A stretch of 4,084 bases of DNA from a virus. Lineage: Duplodnaviria; Heunggongvirae; Uroviricota; Caudoviricetes. Positions 1 through 4,084 of this stretch are shown piece by piece (positions within the stretch are counted from its first letter, which is position 1; each line of letters begins with the position of its first letter). Made by a program: the position numbers and the translations under genes. The notes beneath the pieces were generated by a model. That model was not told where the DNA came from, ran no database searches, and saw only the letters and a program-made list of their open reading frames with translations. The stretch is from the IMG/VR virus record IMGVR_UViG_2703718816_000009. One strand, written 5' to 3'.

Positions 1-48
1 TCTCCAGGATTTCCGGGGCGGTTCAATCTGATAAACACAGAGGTGACT

Positions 49-309
49 ATGGATTACACAAATCTACCAAAACAAACTTTTGCTGATTTAATCGCACTCA
101 GGCAAGCAGTCGTAGCTCTAATCAACTTGTTGCCGGAGAAGGAAAAGGAATTAGTTAAAGCGCTTCTTAACAGAACTGCCGCCGATTTTTCATCATATCC
201 ACTGACAGATGACCTTGCGGACCTTCCTGAATTAATTGCAGCGTCCGCCATTAAGCTTACTGAAGAGATTTACCCTCCTCAAAAATCTTCACAAAATTCC
301 TGCGAGTAA
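49..309 (+). CDS. Hypothetical small acidic, predicted helical protein (86 aa from ATG 49; ORF track starts at GTG 43); function unknown
   Basis: ATG at 49 preceded by GAGG (40-43) with a 5-nt spacer. The product (MDYTNLPKQTFADLIALRQAVVALINLLPEKEKELVK...) has protein-like composition with about 13 acidic and 8 basic residues and no hydrophobic segment, whereas the antisense ORF 54..251 is Ser/Ala/Arg-rich. TAA at 307-309 is followed about 20 nt later by a strong intrinsic terminator (328-363). The frame is open back to position 1, so a longer N-terminus cannot be excluded. Confidence 0.5.
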   Translation: MDYTNLPKQTFADLIALRQAVVALINLLPEKEKELVKALLNRTAADFSSYPLTDDLADLPELIAASAIKLTEEIYPPQKSSQNSCE

Positions 310-808
310 CTTCAATGCAATAATCGTAAAACGCCGCAAACTGCTCATCGCGGCGTTTTTTTTCATCTTCAGAAGGGATCAGCACCGACAATTTTTTATT
401 CAGATCAGCGACGCTGCCCTCCAGTTTTTCAATGGGCGATTCAATATCATCTTTTTCTGACCGCAATGCCGTCGGTGGCGTCTTCAGAGAACCAGTAATT
501 CTTCCCGGTAGCTTTCCTTTGTAGGTTATCCACACATTCTGCGCCTCTAAAATTATGGGGCGCTTTTCCGGCGACTGCTCATCCCCTACACATAACCCGG
601 CAGCAACATCCAGGAATACCTGTCTGATTCTCATTCTGGCTGCTGCCTCATAAAACTCCAGCGCGGCACCTTCAACACGGTCCAGCGAGATGTCCAGGTC
701 AAAAATTTCACCGTCAAAGCGTTTTTTGTCCCGTAAGGCTACAGTTACCGCCACTTTATTCTCAAAATTGCGGACTCCTTTCACAACCAGTTCATAGTCT
801 TGTGTCAT
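257..808 (-). CDS. DUF1327 / YdfR-like prophage protein with an extra C-terminal extension of roughly 80 aa (183 aa from ATG 808; ORF track gives 190 aa from TTG 829)
   Basis: The N-terminal part (MTQDYELVVKGVRNFENKV...FDGEIFDLD...RVEGAALEFYEAAAR) matches my recollection of YdfR-type proteins that follow the holin in Qin-like prophages. ATG 808 lies 4 nt after the holin stop (813-815), with a purine-rich AGAAGAGAG stretch upstream, suggesting translational coupling. The frame stays open to TAA 257-259. The mid and C-terminal portion contains clustered rare codons (AGA, ATA, CTA, GGG) and resembles nothing I recognise. Confidence 0.6.
   Translation of the reverse strand: MTQDYELVVKGVRNFENKVAVTVALRDKKRFDGEIFDLDISLDRVEGAALEFYEAAARMRIRQVFLDVAAGLCVGDEQSPEKRPIILEAQNVWITYKGKLPGRITGSLKTPPTALRSEKDDIESPIEKLEGSVADLNKKLSVLIPSEDEKKRRDEQFAAFYDYCIEVTRRNFVKIFEEGKSLQ
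328..363 (+). terminator. Rho-independent terminator for the 49..309 gene, weaker in the opposite direction
   Basis: Inverted repeat aaaacgccgc (328-337) / gcggcgtttt (350-359) around a 12-nt loop, followed on the plus strand by a run of eight T (356-363). On the minus strand the same hairpin is followed by only four U. It lies inside the minus-strand ORF 257..808. Confidence 0.6.
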
Positions 809-812
809 TGGA

Positions 813-1028
813 TTACTCTCTTCTCGCAACCTTACGCTTGTCTTCTTTAATCTTGAAATAAAGGTTTGTCAGATACGTCAGCAGGCCAAAAACCAGACTA
901 CCCAGCACACCGATTGCAGCCCACTGTGACGGAGTTACTTTATCGAGTAACTGCAATGCCCAGAAACCAGCATTACCAGCCGATGTGCCATAGGCGATAC
1001 CTGTTGTTAACTTATCCATTGATTTCAT
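813..1028 (-). CDS. essQ: Class II holin (pinholin) of the phage 21 S21 family, EssQ/EssD-like, 71 aa with a dual-start motif
   Basis: Product [71 protein letters not shown]: 71 aa, two hydrophobic segments, charged C-terminal tail, and an N-terminal MKSM dual start (Met1 and Met4) as in the S21 antiholin/holin pair. ATG at 1026-1028 with GAGG immediately upstream. The essQ symbol is assigned from the cspB/cspF/Q context; essD-like would be equally consistent with the protein alone. Confidence 0.8.
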
Positions 1029-1246
1029 ATCCTCACCCCGATGTACACAGATGGTGCAATATGTTTGAAAAGATCGGAGTCTATGGGTTAGTTTTTATAG
1101 CAAACGTTGTTCTCAACGGCGCTAAAAAACAGACACATTAAAAATGTGGGTAATTATTTTAAAAGAAAATCATATATTAAATAATAATACGAGATATGTT
1201 TTCATATTTAGTGTACTGTATACGGCCATTTATACAGGAAAAGCCT

Positions 1247-1417
1247 ATGTCAGAACGTAAAGACTCAAAATCACGCCGTAATTATCTCGTTAAATGTTCC
1301 TGCCCAAACTGCACCCAAGAGTCAGAACACAGTTTTTCAAGAGTACAAAAAGGTGCCCTTTTGATCTGCCCTCATTGCAACAAAGTATTCCAGACAAATC
1401 TTAAAGCTGTAGCTTGA
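1247..1417 (+). CDS. Small zinc-ribbon protein (56 aa; two CxxC pairs), cold-shock-island associated; possibly YnfU-like
   Basis: ATG 1247 preceded by AGGA (1236-1239) with a 7-nt spacer. Product MSERKDSKSRRNYLVKCSCPNCTQESEHSFSRVQKGALLICPHCNKVFQTNLKAVA carries CPNC and CPHC about 19 residues apart, typical of a zinc ribbon. The ORF track starts earlier at ATG 1196 (73 aa) but that start has no SD and the extension is hydrophobic and odd. Stop TGA 1415-1417, then a terminator at 1481-1498. I recall a 56-aa zinc-binding small protein in Qin (YnfU) but cannot confirm identity from memory. Confidence 0.6.
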   Translation: MSERKDSKSRRNYLVKCSCPNCTQESEHSFSRVQKGALLICPHCNKVFQTNLKAVA

Positions 1418-1475
1418 TTGATTTTATTCGTAACAAGTATTTTTTATATTTTAATAACATATTTAAAGCAGATAA

Positions 1476-1500
1476 TAAAAAACCCGCCTGAGCGGGTTTA
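1476..1500. terminator. Bidirectional intrinsic terminator shared by the convergent zinc-ribbon gene (plus) and cspB (minus)
   Basis: aacccgc (1481-1487) / gcgggtt (1492-1498) stem with a ctga loop, flanked by an A-run (1476-1480, a U-run for the minus transcript) and ttaatatt on the plus side. Confidence 0.6.
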
Positions 1501-1780
1501 ATATTGTGGTACTTTTTGTGGGAGTCATCCACTTACGCACTTTGTTTTGCTATGCCAGCAGTTAGCTTCTGCTGTAAAACTATTCATGCAGCAAACCTGC
1601 ACTTCACCACAATGGTTAGCATACTTTTCCTGATTAAGTTATTGCCAAATATGCTGGCCATTGTTTCATGTATTGGACCTCCTTACTATTTATTAAAGAG
1701 ATCCAATATTCACCACTCAGTCTGTATCTCCACTCAGGCATCAGCCTTCTTCGTTATCGTATACAGACAAACTATGAATT

Positions 1781-1996
1781 TTAATCAGTAATTATGACAT
1801 TTGCTGCTGCAGGACCTTTAGCACCACTCTCTACAGAGAAGGTAACCTTTTGACCTTCAAATAAGGTTCGAAAATTATCATTCTGAATCGCAGAAAAATG
1901 CACAAACACATCTTTACTACCATCAACAGGAGAAATAAAGCCAAAACCTTTATCAGCGTTAAACCATTTTACTAAACCAGTCATTTTATTTGACAT
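1781..1996 (-). CDS. cspB: Major cold-shock protein of the CspA family, CspB-like, 71 aa
   Basis: Product [67 protein letters not shown]... has the RNP1 (KGFGFI) and RNP2 (VFVHF) motifs. ATG 1994-1996 with TAAGGAA SD 7 nt upstream. Divergently paired with a cspF-like gene, as in Qin. Assignment to cspB rather than cspG or cspI is by recollection. Confidence 0.85.
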
Positions 1997-2156
1997 TCTA
2001 CATTCCTTAACTTGAGCCTTTCGGCATAAATGGCTTGTATAACAGAAACGACTTCGTACTTAATTGGAGAGACTCAAAGAAGGAATAAGTGAATAACACC
2101 TGAAATGAGAACTGCTTTAGTAAACTACTTCGTATATCGTCTGTTCTTCAAACCGA
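1997..2156 (-). promoter_or_regulatory. Long (about 160 nt) cspB 5' UTR with a cold-box-like element near its 5' end
   Basis: Minus-strand sequence ggtttgaagaacagac...taaagcag (about 2120-2156) resembles the cspA cold-box region (GGTTTGACGTACAGAC...TAAAGCAG). The distance from the proposed start site to the ATG is about 160 nt, consistent with the long UTRs of cold-shock genes. Confidence 0.5.
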
Positions 2157-2162
2157 CGCAAT

Positions 2163-2192
2163 CATTAACGCATAGTTGAACATATGAAGCAA
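2163..2192 (-). promoter_or_regulatory. Putative sigma70 promoter of cspB
   Basis: On the minus strand: -35 TTGCTT (plus coordinates 2187-2192), 18-nt spacer, -10 TTAATG (2163-2168), similar to the cspA -10 context, with an AT-rich UP-like stretch upstream (aaaataaaca). Confidence 0.4.
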
Positions 2193-2237
2193 TGTTTATT
2201 TTAGACATCCAGCCATCTTCAACCCCATCAAAAAACT

Positions 2238-2266
2238 ATAGCTTTCTTCAGGAACGTGTGTATAGT
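2238..2266 (+). promoter_or_regulatory. Possible cspF promoter (-10 TATAGT, weak -35)
   Basis: TATAGT at 2261-2266 about 30 nt upstream of the start codon. No convincing -35 hexamer at the right spacing. Confidence 0.25.
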
Positions 2267-2296
2267 GCGCCCAGTTATCAGTATTAAGGAATTTTT

Positions 2297-2509
2297 TTGT
2301 CCCGTAAAATGACAGGAATTGTCAAAACCTTTGACGGCAAAAGCGGCAAGGGTCTTATCACCCCATCCGATGGTCGTATCGATGTCCAGCTTCATGTTTC
2401 AGCGCTCAATCTCCGCGATGCAGAAGAAATTACCACCGGATTACGCGTGGAATTTTGCCGGATAAATGGTCTGCGTGGCCCTTCAGCTGCCAATGTTTAC
2501 CTTTCATGA
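2297..2509 (+). CDS. cspF: Divergent cold-shock-domain protein, CspF/CspH-like (70 aa), apparently starting at TTG
   Basis: Product [70 protein letters not shown]. The 70-aa form needs TTG at 2297-2299, which has AAGGA (2286-2290) 6 nt upstream; the first in-frame ATG (2309) has no SD. The RNP1/RNP2 aromatic residues are replaced ([17 protein letters not shown]), as in the CspF/CspH subgroup. cspF versus cspH is chosen from the prophage context with cspB. Confidence 0.75.
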
Positions 2510-2563
2510 GCTATATTAAAGCTTTAATTTCAGGCCCCATCGAATCAAACATGGAGAGTTTTC

Positions 2564-2653
2564 ATGAATAACCCCGTCTGTCTTGATGACTGGTTGATTG
2601 GCTTTAAAAGCTTATGCTGTACTTTGACCGTAATAGCTCTGCTAATAATGTAA
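2564..2653 (+). CDS. Candidate small hydrophobic protein (29 aa), [29 protein letters not shown]
   Basis: ATG 2564 preceded by GGAGAG (2553-2558) with a 5-nt spacer. The C-terminal half is hydrophobic (LTVIALLIM), like a single-pass or membrane-associated micro-protein. It sits between cspF and the 2795-2820 terminator. Too short for the ORF track. Confidence 0.3.
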
Positions 2654-2794
2654 TATGCAGACTCATTGTATCTAGGGACATAGTACTGGAAGAAAACATT
2701 TTAAACATCAGGCAAAGTCACCCGATAAATAATAAGTAAACAAACATGAATCCCGGAATGAGATTCAACATCTCTATTACCCTATTTAAAGCAC

Positions 2795-2820
2795 AAAAAC
2801 CCGCTCATCAGCGGGTTTTC
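2795..2820. terminator. Bidirectional intrinsic terminator: tR'-like terminator for the short late-promoter transcript (minus) and terminator for cspF (plus)
   Basis: Perfect 9-bp stem aaacccgct (2797-2805) / agcgggttt (2810-2818) with a 4-nt loop. The plus side is followed by T-rich tctactttttct, and the minus side by a U-run from the A-run at 2795-2799. It lies about 60 nt downstream of the proposed late promoter. Confidence 0.6.
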
Positions 2821-2864
2821 TACTTTTTCTTAACGTCGGGTATATAAAGCCCATCGTTGAAAGA

Positions 2865-2892
2865 ATTTTATCCATATTTTTGAAAAATGCAA
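2865..2892 (-). promoter_or_regulatory. Putative late promoter (pR'-like) immediately downstream of the Q gene
   Basis: On the minus strand: -35 TTGCAT (plus 2887-2892), 16-nt spacer, -10 TAAAAT (plus 2865-2870). It begins about 30 nt after the Q stop codon and is followed by a -10-like TTTATATA in the initial transcribed region and then the 2795-2820 hairpin, matching the lambdoid Q / pR' / tR' layout. Confidence 0.4.
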
Positions 2893-2923
2893 GCATTACG
2901 TCGCCATCTTCGGCGAAAATCAT

Positions 2924-3676
2924 TTATCTCGTCACTTTTCTTAATTGCACCTCAGCATATGCTTCTTCCTGCCAGCACTTTGTAACCAGTTTATCAATGA
3001 CATCTGCATATCCTTTGTACCACTGATAATCAGTCAGGTCTGGTACCAGCTTCTGGACATGACACCGCGCCAGTGTCGTTGGTAAACGACTAAACCGGTT
3101 TCCATTGCAACGCCCACAAATCTTATAAACAGGCGCGCCATGAAGCCGGGTCCTTTTTTCATCCAGGACAATACCTTTACCCTTACACCCTCTGCACGCT
3201 GTGCTGACTTCTCCCTTACCATGACAATGCTGACATAGTTCCTTCACCCACTCTTCCTTGATAACAGACTCCCCGCTTCTGGAGTATTTCACCACTTCGC
3301 GCAATACATTATGAAATCCAGTACCAGCACAAGGCTCACAGCGAGCCTTACTTGCCGCAGACCTGGAATAATCAGCAAAGGCAAAACTCACAAGGTAAGG
3401 GATGATCTGTAACCGGATTTCTTCACTCAATTTGTTCAATGTCGGGTTATCCAGTGCCATCGCGTAATTGAGCAGACCTTCAATCGCAAACTGAGGATCC
3501 TGAACGCCAGCTTTTGCCAGGAATAAGGCAAACCCAAGCGGTGCTTTCGACTGCACCATCCCCTGCGCAGCCATCACATCCGTAATCGTTAAACCACCTG
3601 AGCCTGTCGCCGGTGCGGCATCACTCAATTTTGGAGATTTTGGGGAGTAATATTTTGGTAAGGCTTCAAGGTTCAT
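2924..3676 (-). CDS. quuQ: Late-gene antiterminator, Q family (QuuQ-like), 250 aa from ATG 3676
   Basis: Product MNLEALPKYYSPKSPKLSDAAPATGSGGLTITDVMAAQGMVQSK... with four CxxCxGxG-type cysteine motifs (CEPCAGTG, CQHCHGKG, CRGCKGKG, CGRCNGNR). ATG 3674-3676 has GGAG 7 nt upstream; the ORF-track GTG start at 3718 has no SD and would overlap the upstream gene. Its position directly upstream of a promoter/terminator pair and a holin matches Q of lambdoid phages. Confidence 0.85.
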   Translation of the reverse strand: MNLEALPKYYSPKSPKLSDAAPATGSGGLTITDVMAAQGMVQSKAPLGFALFLAKAGVQDPQFAIEGLLNYAMALDNPTLNKLSEEIRLQIIPYLVSFAFADYSRSAASKARCEPCAGTGFHNVLREVVKYSRSGESVIKEEWVKELCQHCHGKGEVSTACRGCKGKGIVLDEKRTRLHGAPVYKICGRCNGNRFSRLPTTLARCHVQKLVPDLTDYQWYKGYADVIDKLVTKCWQEEAYAEVQLRKVTR

Positions 3677-3689
3677 GCTCGTTCTCCAC

Positions 3690-4084
3690 TTACGCCAGTA
3701 CGCCAATTGCCAGCGCACGATCGATAAAACGAAATATCAGCTCCAGTTGGGAGCCATACTTCTCTTCAAATGTCACGGTATCCGCATGCAGCTCGTCGTG
3801 ATGCTTTCTGCACAAAGGCAACACAAAGAGATCATGCGCTTTTGTACCCATTCCACCCTGACCGTGGCCTATCAGGTGGTGGGGATCATCAGCTGGCTTT
3901 CCACAACATGCGCACGGCTGCGTCTTAACCCAGCGCGTGTACTTTTCATTAACCCAGCGGCGACGTTTGGGGCGTAACATAAAAGACTCCGGCGACTCCG
4001 GATCCACTTTCAGCACCAGCACCTTTTTCGCTTTATCCTGGATGATGCTGGTGGCAGGAACTGAACCGCCCCGATTTTCCTGGA
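3690..4084 (-). CDS. ydfU: C-terminal part of a DUF968 / YdfU-like prophage protein with an HNH-like Cys/His motif; 5' end lies beyond the window
   Basis: The reading frame is open from the window edge (4084) to TAA 3690-3692; the ORF-track 'start' at 4022 is an internal GTG. The C-terminus CACCGKPADDPHHLIGHGQGGMGTKAHDLFVLPLCRKHHDELH looks like an HNH/His-Me finger. It sits immediately upstream of Q, as ydfU does in Qin. Confidence 0.7.
   Translation of the reverse strand, partial: QENRGGSVPATSIIQDKAKKVLVLKVDPESPESFMLRPKRRRWVNEKYTRWVKTQPCACCGKPADDPHHLIGHGQGGMGTKAHDLFVLPLCRKHHDELHADTVTFEEKYGSQLELIFRFIDRALAIGVLA

What the first reader, a model, noticed from the sequence alone, without database searches (positions are those of the whole stretch)
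1..830. Convergent small acidic ORF with its own terminator sits where the endolysin is expected
After an S21-type pinholin one expects a SAR endolysin, sometimes after a YdfR-like gene. Here the YdfR-like frame runs on for about 80 extra codons and meets head-on a plus-strand gene (49..309) for an 86-aa acidic, helical protein. That gene has a good SD and a strong terminator (328-363) placed inside the minus-strand reading frame, and no lysozyme-like sequence appears in the window. Small acidic phage proteins with independent transcription are often host-interaction or anti-defence factors (for example DNA-mimic anti-restriction proteins), but nothing here shows that function; this is an unassigned candidate cargo gene.
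Basis: partly seen in the sequence, partly recalled or inferred. Interest (0 to 1): 0.6.

Follow-up and report, generated by a model that had tools for sequence, protein, structure and literature searches.

The report
Small cargo gene beside prophage endolysin
The 86-codon reading frame is a real but uncharacterised small acidic protein gene, one of several interchangeable "cargo" genes found next to the endolysin gene in E. coli/Salmonella lambda-like prophages; the endolysin only seems absent because an insertion sequence ends the sequence there.

Summary
ORF 49-309 (86 aa, pI 4.6, three predicted helices), its GAGGTG ribosome site, hairpin 328-363 (-14.6 kcal/mol, then U8) and the 183-aa YdfR-like frame that overlaps it by 53 nt are all present.

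The ORF is a genuine gene. Relatives at 41-57% identity keep the frame open, with dN/dS about 0.3. The antisense ORF 54-251 carries stops in those relatives. It belongs to phrog_2572 (unknown function) and occurs in 315 of 5,426 complete E. coli genomes.

Three parts of the interpretation need correcting.
- **Endolysin:** it is not replaced. Window 1-25 and 4062-4084 are termini of an IS629-like element. In intact relatives the lysozyme gene starts about 113 nt left of the ORF.
- **The "extra 80 codons":** these are a recurrent helical module. Elsewhere it is a stand-alone 67-73-aa gene, always overlapping this ORF tail to tail.
- **The upstream leader:** a conserved leader with promoter-like hexamers precedes this ORF and at least five unrelated small ORFs. 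This is a cargo (moron) slot. The IS has removed the leader here.

No evidence supports a DNA mimic or anti-defence role. Function remains unknown.

The parts
1..25 (.). Terminus of an IS3-family, IS629-like insertion sequence (the end next to the transposase start). It replaces the native leader and the endolysin side of the locus.
   Evidence: It forms an inverted repeat with 4062-4084. It has 1 mismatch to the end of the 1310-bp IS copy in L090, which is annotated 'IS3 family transposase'. No genome or phage match covers 1-22.
26..48 (+). Remnant of the native 5' leader of the small gene, including the ribosome site GAGGTG (39-44).
   Evidence: Identical to CFT073 and phage sequence from position 23 onward. 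The full leader of about 113 nt is seen only in relatives.
49..309 (+). Gene Y: 86-aa acidic three-helix protein, family phrog_2572, function unknown. This is the cargo of the slot.
   Evidence: phrog_2572 E = 1.2e-53 over the full length. Homologues at 41-57% identity. dN/dS 0.31-0.35 between three clades, with the frame open in all. AlphaFold2 pLDDT 71.8. 108 of 119 E. coli-type loci are intact.
328..363 (.). Terminator-like hairpin (A4-CGCCGC / GCGGCG-T8) lying 19 nt after the stop of Y and inside the coding sequence of module X (codons KKRRDEQFAAF).
   Evidence: -14.6 kcal/mol (+ strand) and -18.7 kcal/mol (- strand). Present in all three clades, 87% of cells paired, two pairs changed on both sides. 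This is not statistically distinctive: 79 of 500 shuffles reach it.
257..478 (-). Module X: about 70-residue, two-helix C-terminal extension of the YdfR-like protein. Its last 53 nt overlap the end of Y.
   Evidence: In frame in four contexts. Stand-alone as a 67-aa gene right after the holin (P0058) and as a 73-aa gene in Salmonella and metagenome loci. Helices 123-143 and 147-182 in a low-confidence model. Selection signal is weak, omega 0.34-0.97.
257..808 (-). YdfR-long: DUF1327 domain (residues 1-112) fused to module X; family phrog_2091.
   Evidence: PF07041 E = 1.8e-41. phrog_2091 E = 4.7e-112 over 1-183 of 183. An identical 183-aa gene is called in O157-type genomes.
813..1028 (-). S21-type class II holin (essQ).
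   Evidence: PF04971 E = 1.1e-33. Annotated essQ in CFT073 and K-12.
4062..4084 (.). Other terminus of the same IS type, cutting the DUF968 gene. It bounds the 4036-bp prophage piece on the right.
   Evidence: Homology to CFT073 stops at 4061-4065.

Best explanation
49..309 is a genuine small-protein gene, called Y here (phrog_2572). It is the cargo of a conserved 'moron slot' in the lysis cassette of lambda-like prophages of E. coli and Salmonella.

In intact relatives the unit reads as follows. A conserved leader of about 110 nt abuts the endolysin start codon. It carries promoter-like hexamers TTATCG-16 nt-TATGTT, and then a ribosome site. Next comes a small ORF transcribed against the late operon, then a GC-rich hairpin with a U-run. 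For Y that hairpin lies inside the coding sequence of a helical module, called X here, whose 3' end overlaps Y by 53-59 nt. X is either its own gene or, as in this window, fused to the DUF1327 domain of YdfR.

The inferred working is this. Y is made from its own promoter in the lysogen. Its transcript stops at the hairpin before running antisense into the holin gene. Q-modified late transcription reads through in the other direction. The product is a cytoplasmic acidic three-helix protein that most likely acts by binding another protein; its target is unknown.

In this window an IS629-like element has replaced the leader 23-26 nt upstream of the ATG, so this copy has probably lost its promoter. 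The endolysin is simply on the far side of the IS or contig end.

Shown here: gene reality, conservation, the slot architecture and the IS boundary. Inferred: promoter activity, termination, timing of expression and mode of action.
For: Gene reality.
- Exhaustive HMMER and a profile search find relatives of 89-93 aa at 41-57% identity in Salmonella and metagenomes.
- Between the three clades the Y frame has dN/dS 0.31-0.35, the highest amino-acid identity of all six frames, and no stops. The antisense frame has 2-3 stops.
- The start codon and ribosome site are conserved. Acidity is conserved at pI 4.6-4.75.

Slot architecture.
- K-12 Qin lacks the 658-bp segment.
- The endolysin lies 113 nt to the left in CFT073, and likewise in PhiR12_2 and O157-type genomes.
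- The same leader precedes Y in all three clades. It also precedes other ORFs of 90, 104, 87-91, 98, 105 and 210 aa. hhalign finds no relationship between these families, probability 2.4% or less.
- Other cargoes are also followed by hairpin-plus-T-run terminators, for example in L181 and L219.
- At the putative -10 position, 35 of 44 distinct leaders read TATGTT, while there are 19 different spacers.
- About 617 complete E. coli genomes hold most of the leader, against 294-315 that hold Y.

Hairpin.

IS boundary.
Against: No transcript, transcription start, 3' end or protein data were available. The promoter-like hexamers are weak (3/6 and 4/6 matches to consensus) and fell below the consensus scan. 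The whole first 45 nt or so of the leader is conserved, not only the hexamers, and in E. coli it abuts the endolysin ATG, so it could be conserved for endolysin expression instead. The U-run after the hairpin is strong only in the E. coli clade. In L004 the same hairpin lies about 470 nt from the cargo gene, so it is not always the cargo's terminator. Hairpin covariation is not significant. Some copies carry ACG in place of ATG (7 of 119) or a stop at codon 19 (2 of 119), so selection is not strict everywhere.
Confidence: 0.65

Rival explanations
1. Y and module X form a functional two-gene unit. X is a late-expressed coiled-coil protein of the lysis cassette (alone or fused to YdfR). Y is its lysogen-expressed acidic partner or antagonist, or the Y mRNA acts as an antisense RNA on the 3' end of X. 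The tail-to-tail overlap and shared hairpin would couple their expression.
For: In all three diverged clades, and at two different genome positions (between holin and endolysin; after the DUF2514 spanin-like gene), Y is found with X, convergent and overlapping by 53 or 59 nt. The hairpin is kept through an R-to-H plus A-to-V change in X that preserves pairing. Y is acidic while Salmonella X is basic, pI 9.1.
Against: The X core also occurs with other cargo genes or other tails (L004, L005, L181). The co-occurrence is therefore partly a trivial result of physical overlap and shared recombination breakpoints. Evidence that X is under protein-level selection is weak, omega 0.34-0.97 and not better than other frames. 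E. coli X is itself acidic, pI 5.0-5.5. A complex prediction could not be run.
Confidence: 0.2
2. Y is an anti-defence or host-takeover factor, for example a DNA-mimic anti-restriction protein.
For: It is small, acidic and helical, and lies in a slot holding several unrelated, fast-swapping small ORFs. Such hot spots often carry defence or counter-defence genes (general knowledge).
Confidence: 0.07
3. 49..309 is not a gene. It would be a chance ORF, or the mirror image of a real minus-strand gene (ORF 54..251 or a longer YdfR read-through).
For: ORF 54..251 stays open in all E. coli alleles, and its third codon positions coincide with those of Y, so both frames look conserved among close alleles (window versus L086). 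Some copies of Y have lost the ATG.
Against: In the two diverged clades the antisense frame has 2-3 stops, while Y is open with its own start and ribosome site. The replacements in Y between the window and L086 are more conservative, mean BLOSUM62 +0.62 against -1.0. ORF 54..251 has no PHROG or Pfam match. The YdfR-long frame stops at 257.
Confidence: 0.05

Closest known systems
Morons of lambda-like phages (lambda bor and lom; the HK97/HK022 morons defined by Hendrix and colleagues). This comparison rests on my knowledge, not on a paper read here.
   Same: An extra gene present in some relatives and absent in others at the same spot, flanked by promoter-like and terminator-like signals. It sits in the late region and, like bor, points against late transcription, so it can be expressed from the prophage.
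   Different: The slot lies inside the lysis cassette, between a holin-proximal accessory gene and the endolysin. The terminator-like hairpin is embedded in, and the cargo overlaps, a late-strand coding sequence. The product is cytoplasmic, not a lipoprotein or outer-membrane protein. Expression is untested.
PHROG family phrog_2572 (86 aa, unknown function); RefSeq WP_001306174.1 'hypothetical protein'
   Same: Full-length match, E = 1.2e-53. The CFT073 copy is annotated at the same place, and the window protein sequence is on at least 1000 contigs.
   Different: Nothing differs. This is the family, and it has no described function.
YdfR / DUF1327 (Qin prophage, K-12) and phrog_2091
   Same: The N-terminal 112 residues of the neighbouring gene are a DUF1327 domain. 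K-12 YdfR residues 1-72 bind the RNase E catalytic half and may bind RNA (PMC13232886).
   Different: K-12 YdfR (103 aa) has a different C-terminus and directly overlaps the lysozyme gene. The window form carries the extra X module and is separated from the lysozyme by Y and its leader.
Type I toxin-antitoxin loci with convergent, 3'-overlapping transcripts (for example txpA/RatA and bsrG/SR4 of B. subtilis prophages; my knowledge)
   Same: Two convergent units overlap at their 3' ends around a shared hairpin, in a prophage.
   Different: Both partners here are soluble, conserved protein-coding frames. There is no small hydrophobic toxin. No PADLOC or Pfam toxin or antitoxin match.
DNA-mimic anti-restriction proteins (Ocr, ArdA)
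   Same: Small and acidic.
   Different: No sequence or fold similarity, and only a modest net charge.

Membership tests
Moron (independent cargo unit in a lambda-like phage) | Gene present in some closely related phages and absent from others at the same position | tested here: met
   K-12 Qin has 93 bp where CFT073 and the window have 658 bp. Other cargo ORFs occupy the same slot.
Moron (independent cargo unit in a lambda-like phage) | Own promoter upstream | tested here: inconclusive
   A conserved leader carries TTATCG-16 nt-TATGTT in relatives, but the match to consensus is weak and it is not called by the scan. It is absent from the window, replaced by the IS end.
Moron (independent cargo unit in a lambda-like phage) | Own factor-independent terminator downstream | tested here: met
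   Hairpin 328-363, -14.6 kcal/mol, followed by U8, 19 nt after the stop. This is sequence evidence only; termination was not measured.
Moron (independent cargo unit in a lambda-like phage) | Expressed from the repressed prophage | not testable with these tools
   No transcriptome or proteome data were available. Literature searches found nothing on this gene.
phrog_2572 | Full-length significant match to the family profile | tested here: met
   E = 1.2e-53, residues 1-86 on profile positions 1-86 of 86.
DUF1327 / YdfR family (neighbouring gene) | Match to PF07041 above the gathering score | tested here: met
   140.7 bits against a cut-off of 25; profile positions 1-92 of 93.
S21 pinholin / SAR-endolysin lysis cassette | Class II S21-type holin | tested here: met
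   PF04971, 115.4 bits.
S21 pinholin / SAR-endolysin lysis cassette | Endolysin gene downstream of the holin | tested here: not met
   Not in the window. It is present about 113 nt beyond Y in CFT073, PhiR12_2 and O157-type relatives. The window is cut by the IS end before it.
DNA-mimic anti-restriction proteins (Ocr/ArdA) | Sequence or fold similarity to a known mimic, and a very high negative charge | tested here: not met
Toxin-antitoxin or known defence system | Match of either partner to a known toxin, antitoxin or defence profile | tested here: not met
   PADLOC gives no match for the window's Y, YdfR-long or X (P0058). The only match is a weak one of the Salmonella Y homologue P0025 to DrmA (E = 0.0042, 12 bits), taken as chance. 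Pfam gives none.
IS3 family, IS629-like element (window ends) | Terminal inverted repeats matching a known copy | tested here: met
   One mismatch in each terminal stretch (25 and 23 nt) to the two ends of the 1310-bp element in L090, which is annotated IS3 family transposase. The body of the IS is outside the window. The name IS629 is from my memory.

The most novel reading that the evidence does not exclude
The conserved leader-to-hairpin unit next to the endolysin gene may be a previously undescribed diversity hot spot of lambda-like prophages, exchanging small lysogen-expressed proteins. Within it, Y and the helical module X (sometimes fused to the RNase E-binding YdfR domain) may be a coupled pair. 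In that reading, a prophage-expressed acidic protein controls a late lysis-cassette accessory protein, either by protein binding or through 3'-overlapping antisense transcription around a terminator written into a coding sequence.
Probability: 0.15. Interest if true: 0.6.

Novelty: new member of a known kind. Interest (0 to 1): 0.3.

Why it matters
For annotation, the result removes a false puzzle. The lysis cassette is ordinary and has been interrupted by an insertion sequence. The small ORF is a real gene that annotation pipelines already call "hypothetical".

It also suggests that PGAP's label for the neighbouring gene ("YdfR family, incomplete, missing C-terminus") may be wrong. The gene looks like an intact 183-aa fusion of DUF1327 with a recurrent module.

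For phage biology, it defines a compact, testable unit: a conserved leader, a swappable small ORF and a hairpin inside a late gene. About 6% of complete E. coli genomes carry Y, and about 11% carry most of the leader. If the cargo proteins are expressed in lysogens, they are candidates for lysogenic-conversion or phage-phage conflict functions. That is still only a possibility.

Tried and rejected
- **Function by sequence.** Pfam, NCBIfam, PADLOC and PHROGs gave only families of unknown function.
- **An apparent repeat-protein homologue.** A 975-aa TPR/CHAT-like protein (P0019) matched Y in 8 stretches. I judged this repeat-helix similarity rather than homology and did not pursue it.
- **Structure of YdfR-long.** The model was too poor to use for fold search (pLDDT 45.7).
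- **RNA families.** Rfam found nothing in 1-830. The GcvB hit (E = 0.77) is chance.
- **Hairpin covariation.** Two double-sided changes were found, but 79 of 500 shuffles do as well, so this is not evidence on its own.
- **Selection on module X.** The result was ambiguous, confounded by the overlap and the hairpin.
- **Homology between the alternative cargo families.** hhalign found none.
- **Species survey.** Only E. coli among 185,579 species representatives carries Y.
- **Literature.** Searches on DUF1327, accession numbers and morons in lysis cassettes found nothing on Y. The one useful paper concerns K-12 YdfR.
- **The 'DUF1823' label.** The PhiR12 phage records give Y this label, but my Pfam scan does not reproduce it.
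Full report
**What the window is.** The 4,084 bases are the late-regulatory and lysis region of a Qin-like lambdoid prophage of E. coli.
- On the minus strand: a truncated DUF968 gene, the Q antiterminator, cspB, an S21-type holin (813-1028) and a YdfR-like gene (257-808).
- On the plus strand: cspF, ynfU and the 86-codon ORF at 49-309.
- Thousands of E. coli genomes match the window, but every match runs from 23 to 4065 only, as do all phage and metagenome loci fetched later.
- The two unmatched ends form an inverted repeat, 3-25 against 4062-4084.
- Each end differs by one base from the termini of a 1,310-bp element found inside the same gene neighbourhood in an EHEC genome (L090 3417-4726). 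That element is annotated as an IS3-family transposase. From memory its ends and length are those of IS629.
- Both copies face the same way. The window is therefore a 4,036-bp prophage piece lying between two copies of one insertion sequence, most likely a short-read contig that broke in the repeats.

**The observation.**
- The ORF encodes 86 aa with pI 4.57 and net charge -5.5.
- The ribosome site GAGGTG lies just upstream of the ATG.
- The hairpin at 328-363 folds at -14.6 kcal/mol, followed by eight U, with z = -3.8 against shuffles.
- The minus-strand frame carries a DUF1327 domain in its first 112 residues. It then continues for about 70 more, through the hairpin, and overlaps the plus ORF by 53 nt.

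**Where the endolysin is.**
- In CFT073 the same DNA is annotated, on the late strand, as essQ, a 'YdfR family' pseudogene, a hypothetical protein (WP_001306174.1, the 86-aa ORF, on the other strand), then lysozyme rrrQ and rzpQ. The lysozyme start codon lies 113 nt to the left of the ORF's ATG, and the two genes diverge.
- Phage PhiR12_2, O157-type prophages and Stx phages show the same order.
- The window diverges from these sequences 23-26 nt upstream of the ATG, where the IS terminus begins.
- So nothing has replaced the endolysin. The sequence simply stops at an IS.
- Compared with K-12 Qin, where ydfR overlaps rrrQ directly, the window-type prophages carry 658 bp in place of 93 bp. This segment holds an alternative end of the DUF1327 domain, the extra module, the small ORF and its upstream leader.

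**Is 49-309 a gene?**
- A word-indexed search found only E. coli proteins at 85% identity or more. Among such close alleles the antisense ORF 54-251 also stays open, because its third codon positions coincide with those of the plus frame. That test alone could not decide.
- An exhaustive HMMER search and a profile search then found relatives of 89-93 aa at 41-57% identity in Salmonella prophages and gut metagenomes.
- Across the three clades, the plus frame is open in every sequence and has its own start and ribosome site. It also has the highest amino-acid identity of all six frames and dN/dS of 0.31-0.35. The antisense frame contains 2-3 stop codons.
- Acidity is conserved. AlphaFold2 gives three helices at moderate confidence.
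- The protein matches phrog_2572 over its full length.
- It is present in 315 of 5,426 complete E. coli genomes, but in only one of 185,579 species-representative genomes, E. coli itself.
- Of 119 E. coli-type copies in fetched loci, 108 are intact, 7 have ACG in place of ATG, and 2 have a stop at codon 19.
- I conclude that it is a real, narrowly distributed gene under moderate purifying selection.

**The 'extra 80 codons'.** The C-terminal part of the YdfR-like protein is called X here; its core reads EKLE..LNKKLSVL.PSEDEKKRRDEQFAAFYDYCIEV.RRNF.
- It recurs in frame in other contexts: at the end of other DUF1327 proteins (phrog_2091, 183 aa), and at the start of a 213-aa protein.
- It also occurs on its own. 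One form is a 67-aa gene beginning 4 nt after the holin stop in EHEC prophages (P0058, on about 393 contigs). Another is a 73-aa gene after the DUF2514 spanin-like gene in Salmonella prophages.
- In-frame indels occur, such as the 21-nt deletion at 398-418.
- The low-confidence model shows two long helices.
- The extension is therefore a gene-fusion module, not a run-on.
- The evidence that X is selected as a protein is weak, however. Omega is 0.34-0.97 and no better than in other frames, and the overlap and the hairpin confound the measure.
- PGAP's call 'incomplete, missing C-terminus' for this gene probably reflects comparison with the short YdfR forms.

**The hairpin.**
- It is written in the X codons KKRRDEQFAAF.
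- It is present in all three clades. In the most distant clade CGCCGC/GCGGCG becomes CGCCACC/GGTGGCG. That costs R-to-H and A-to-V changes in X but keeps the pairing.
- On seven distinct sequences, 87% of cells pair and two pairs change on both sides. However, 79 of 500 shuffles do as well, so this is suggestive only.
- The U-run on the Y strand is strong only in the E. coli clade.
- In one relative (L004) the hairpin sits far from the cargo gene.

**The slot.**
- Upstream of Y, all three clades share a leader: ATATTTATCAGGnTTTATCGG, then 16 nt, then TATGTT, then a CCAGTG-GTGGG-CACTGG palindrome.
- In E. coli the leader abuts the endolysin ATG. In the Salmonella clade it travels with X and Y to a different place, between the spanin-like gene and the terminase genes.
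- The same leader precedes a 104-aa ORF (phrog_1853) in one Stx2a phage and an unannotated ORF of about 210 aa in a Stx1a phage.
- I scanned IMG/VR for the leader block. Besides Y (86-93 aa), the leader was followed by ORF families of 90, 104, 87-91, 98, 105 and 210 aa. In 40 loci no ORF of 50 aa or more started within 50-230 nt.
- hhalign finds no relationship among these families.
- Several are followed by clean hairpin-plus-T-run terminators, again sometimes inside the late-strand ORF.
- Of 44 distinct leaders, 35 read TATGTT at the putative -10 position, with 19 different spacers. The whole first 45 nt or so is conserved, so the promoter reading is plausible but not shown. The consensus scan does not call it.
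- About 617 complete E. coli genomes hold most of the leader, roughly twice the number that hold Y.

**Mechanism, with its status.**
- Shown: a conserved small gene, in a position where related phages carry other small genes or none. It is bracketed by a conserved leader and a terminator-like hairpin, and is convergent with and overlapping a late-strand module.
- Inferred: Y is transcribed from the leader in the lysogen, against the silent late operon, and stops at the hairpin before entering the holin gene. Antiterminated late transcription reads through the hairpin and would occlude the Y promoter.
- Inferred: the product is a soluble acidic helical protein that acts by binding a partner.
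- Inferred: in this window the leader is gone and the adjacent IS end is the one at the transposase start, which points away from Y. This copy is probably silent.

**Rival readings.**
- A functional X-Y pair is the most attractive alternative. It would explain their joint movement and the constant 53-59-nt overlap. But X also pairs with other cargo genes, and its coding signal is weak.
- An anti-defence or DNA-mimic role has no support.
- The 'not a gene' reading is contradicted.

**Comparison with what is known.**
- The unit works like a classical moron of lambdoid phages, and like lambda bor in pointing against late transcription (my knowledge).
- Two of the four features I listed for a moron are met here in sequence (for presence and absence; for the terminator). 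The promoter is inconclusive and prophage expression is untested.
- The protein is a member of phrog_2572, and its neighbour is a member of DUF1327 and phrog_2091.
- The only experimental information nearby concerns K-12 YdfR. Its residues 1-72 bind the catalytic half of RNase E and may bind RNA (PMC13232886).

**Verdict.**
- The 'missing' endolysin is an IS and contig-end effect.
- The long YdfR frame is a known fusion form.
- The small ORF is an already catalogued hypothetical gene.
- What remains is modestly interesting: a compact cargo slot beside the endolysin gene, with a terminator written into a late coding sequence, and a small acidic protein of unknown function.

I rate interest at 0.3 and file it as a new, uncharacterised member of a known kind.

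Noticed in passing
window 1-25 and 4062-4084: The two window ends are the opposite termini of one IS3-family (IS629-like) element, in the same orientation. The prophage piece therefore lies between two IS copies, and the DUF968 gene (3690-4061) is cut by the right-hand copy.
   Followed up: yes
L090 3417-4726 (= window ~465); protein P0012: The same IS type has inserted independently into this neighbourhood in other genomes. One insertion lies between the DUF1327 domain and module X. Another lies inside Y after codon 64, where the protein reads ...ELIA then VNRPGFPGE, the translated IS end. This may be an insertion hot spot.
   Followed up: partly
window 355-362: The A8/T8 run that forms the terminator tail lies inside the X coding sequence (codons EKKR). 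Its length varies (T7, T9) in metagenome loci L147 and L117, which would shift the X frame. The cause could be sequencing error or slippage.
   Followed up: no
L001 5914-6026; L086 2884-3000; L004, L005, L163-L282: The conserved leader next to the endolysin start has a direct repeat of GATAAAT (read on the late strand) and a perfect 6-bp palindrome CCAGTG-GTGGG-CACTGG. Their role (operator, RNA structure or endolysin translation signal) is unknown.
   Followed up: partly
L005 3041-3673 (minus strand of the locus), Stx1a-converting phage Stx1_699: An unannotated ORF of about 210 aa follows the leader and overlaps about 250 nt of the annotated 263-aa 'hypothetical protein' (2501-3292). One of the two calls is probably wrong.
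   Followed up: no
L163 and 27 other IMG/VR loci: The commonest cargo in the sampled slot is a 90-aa ORF (MDNNTISLQELLDSISRLRE...). It is not detectably related to Y by hhalign and was not characterised further here.
   Followed up: no
window 1718-2157 (-): Rfam cspA thermoregulator (RF01766, 157 bits) covers the cspB 5' untranslated region and gene start, as expected for this cold-shock paralogue.
   Followed up: no
window 1477-1499 and 2796-2818: There are two similar GC-rich hairpins flanked by A and T runs (AAAAAACCCGCCTGAGCGGGTTT and AAAACCCGCTCATCAGCGGGTTT). The first lies after ynfU and the second after cspF and a ynfS-like ORF. They look like bidirectional terminators.
   Followed up: no
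window 257-808 (-); CFT073 C_RS30310: RefSeq marks this gene as a YdfR pseudogene 'missing C-terminus'. However, the 183-aa frame is intact, matches phrog_2091 end to end, and is called as a gene in other assemblies. This is probably an annotation artefact.
   Followed up: partly
PhiR12 phage records (PV340549-PV340554): These records label the 86-aa protein 'DUF1823 containing protein'. My Pfam scan at E <= 0.1 gives no DUF1823 match.
   Followed up: partly
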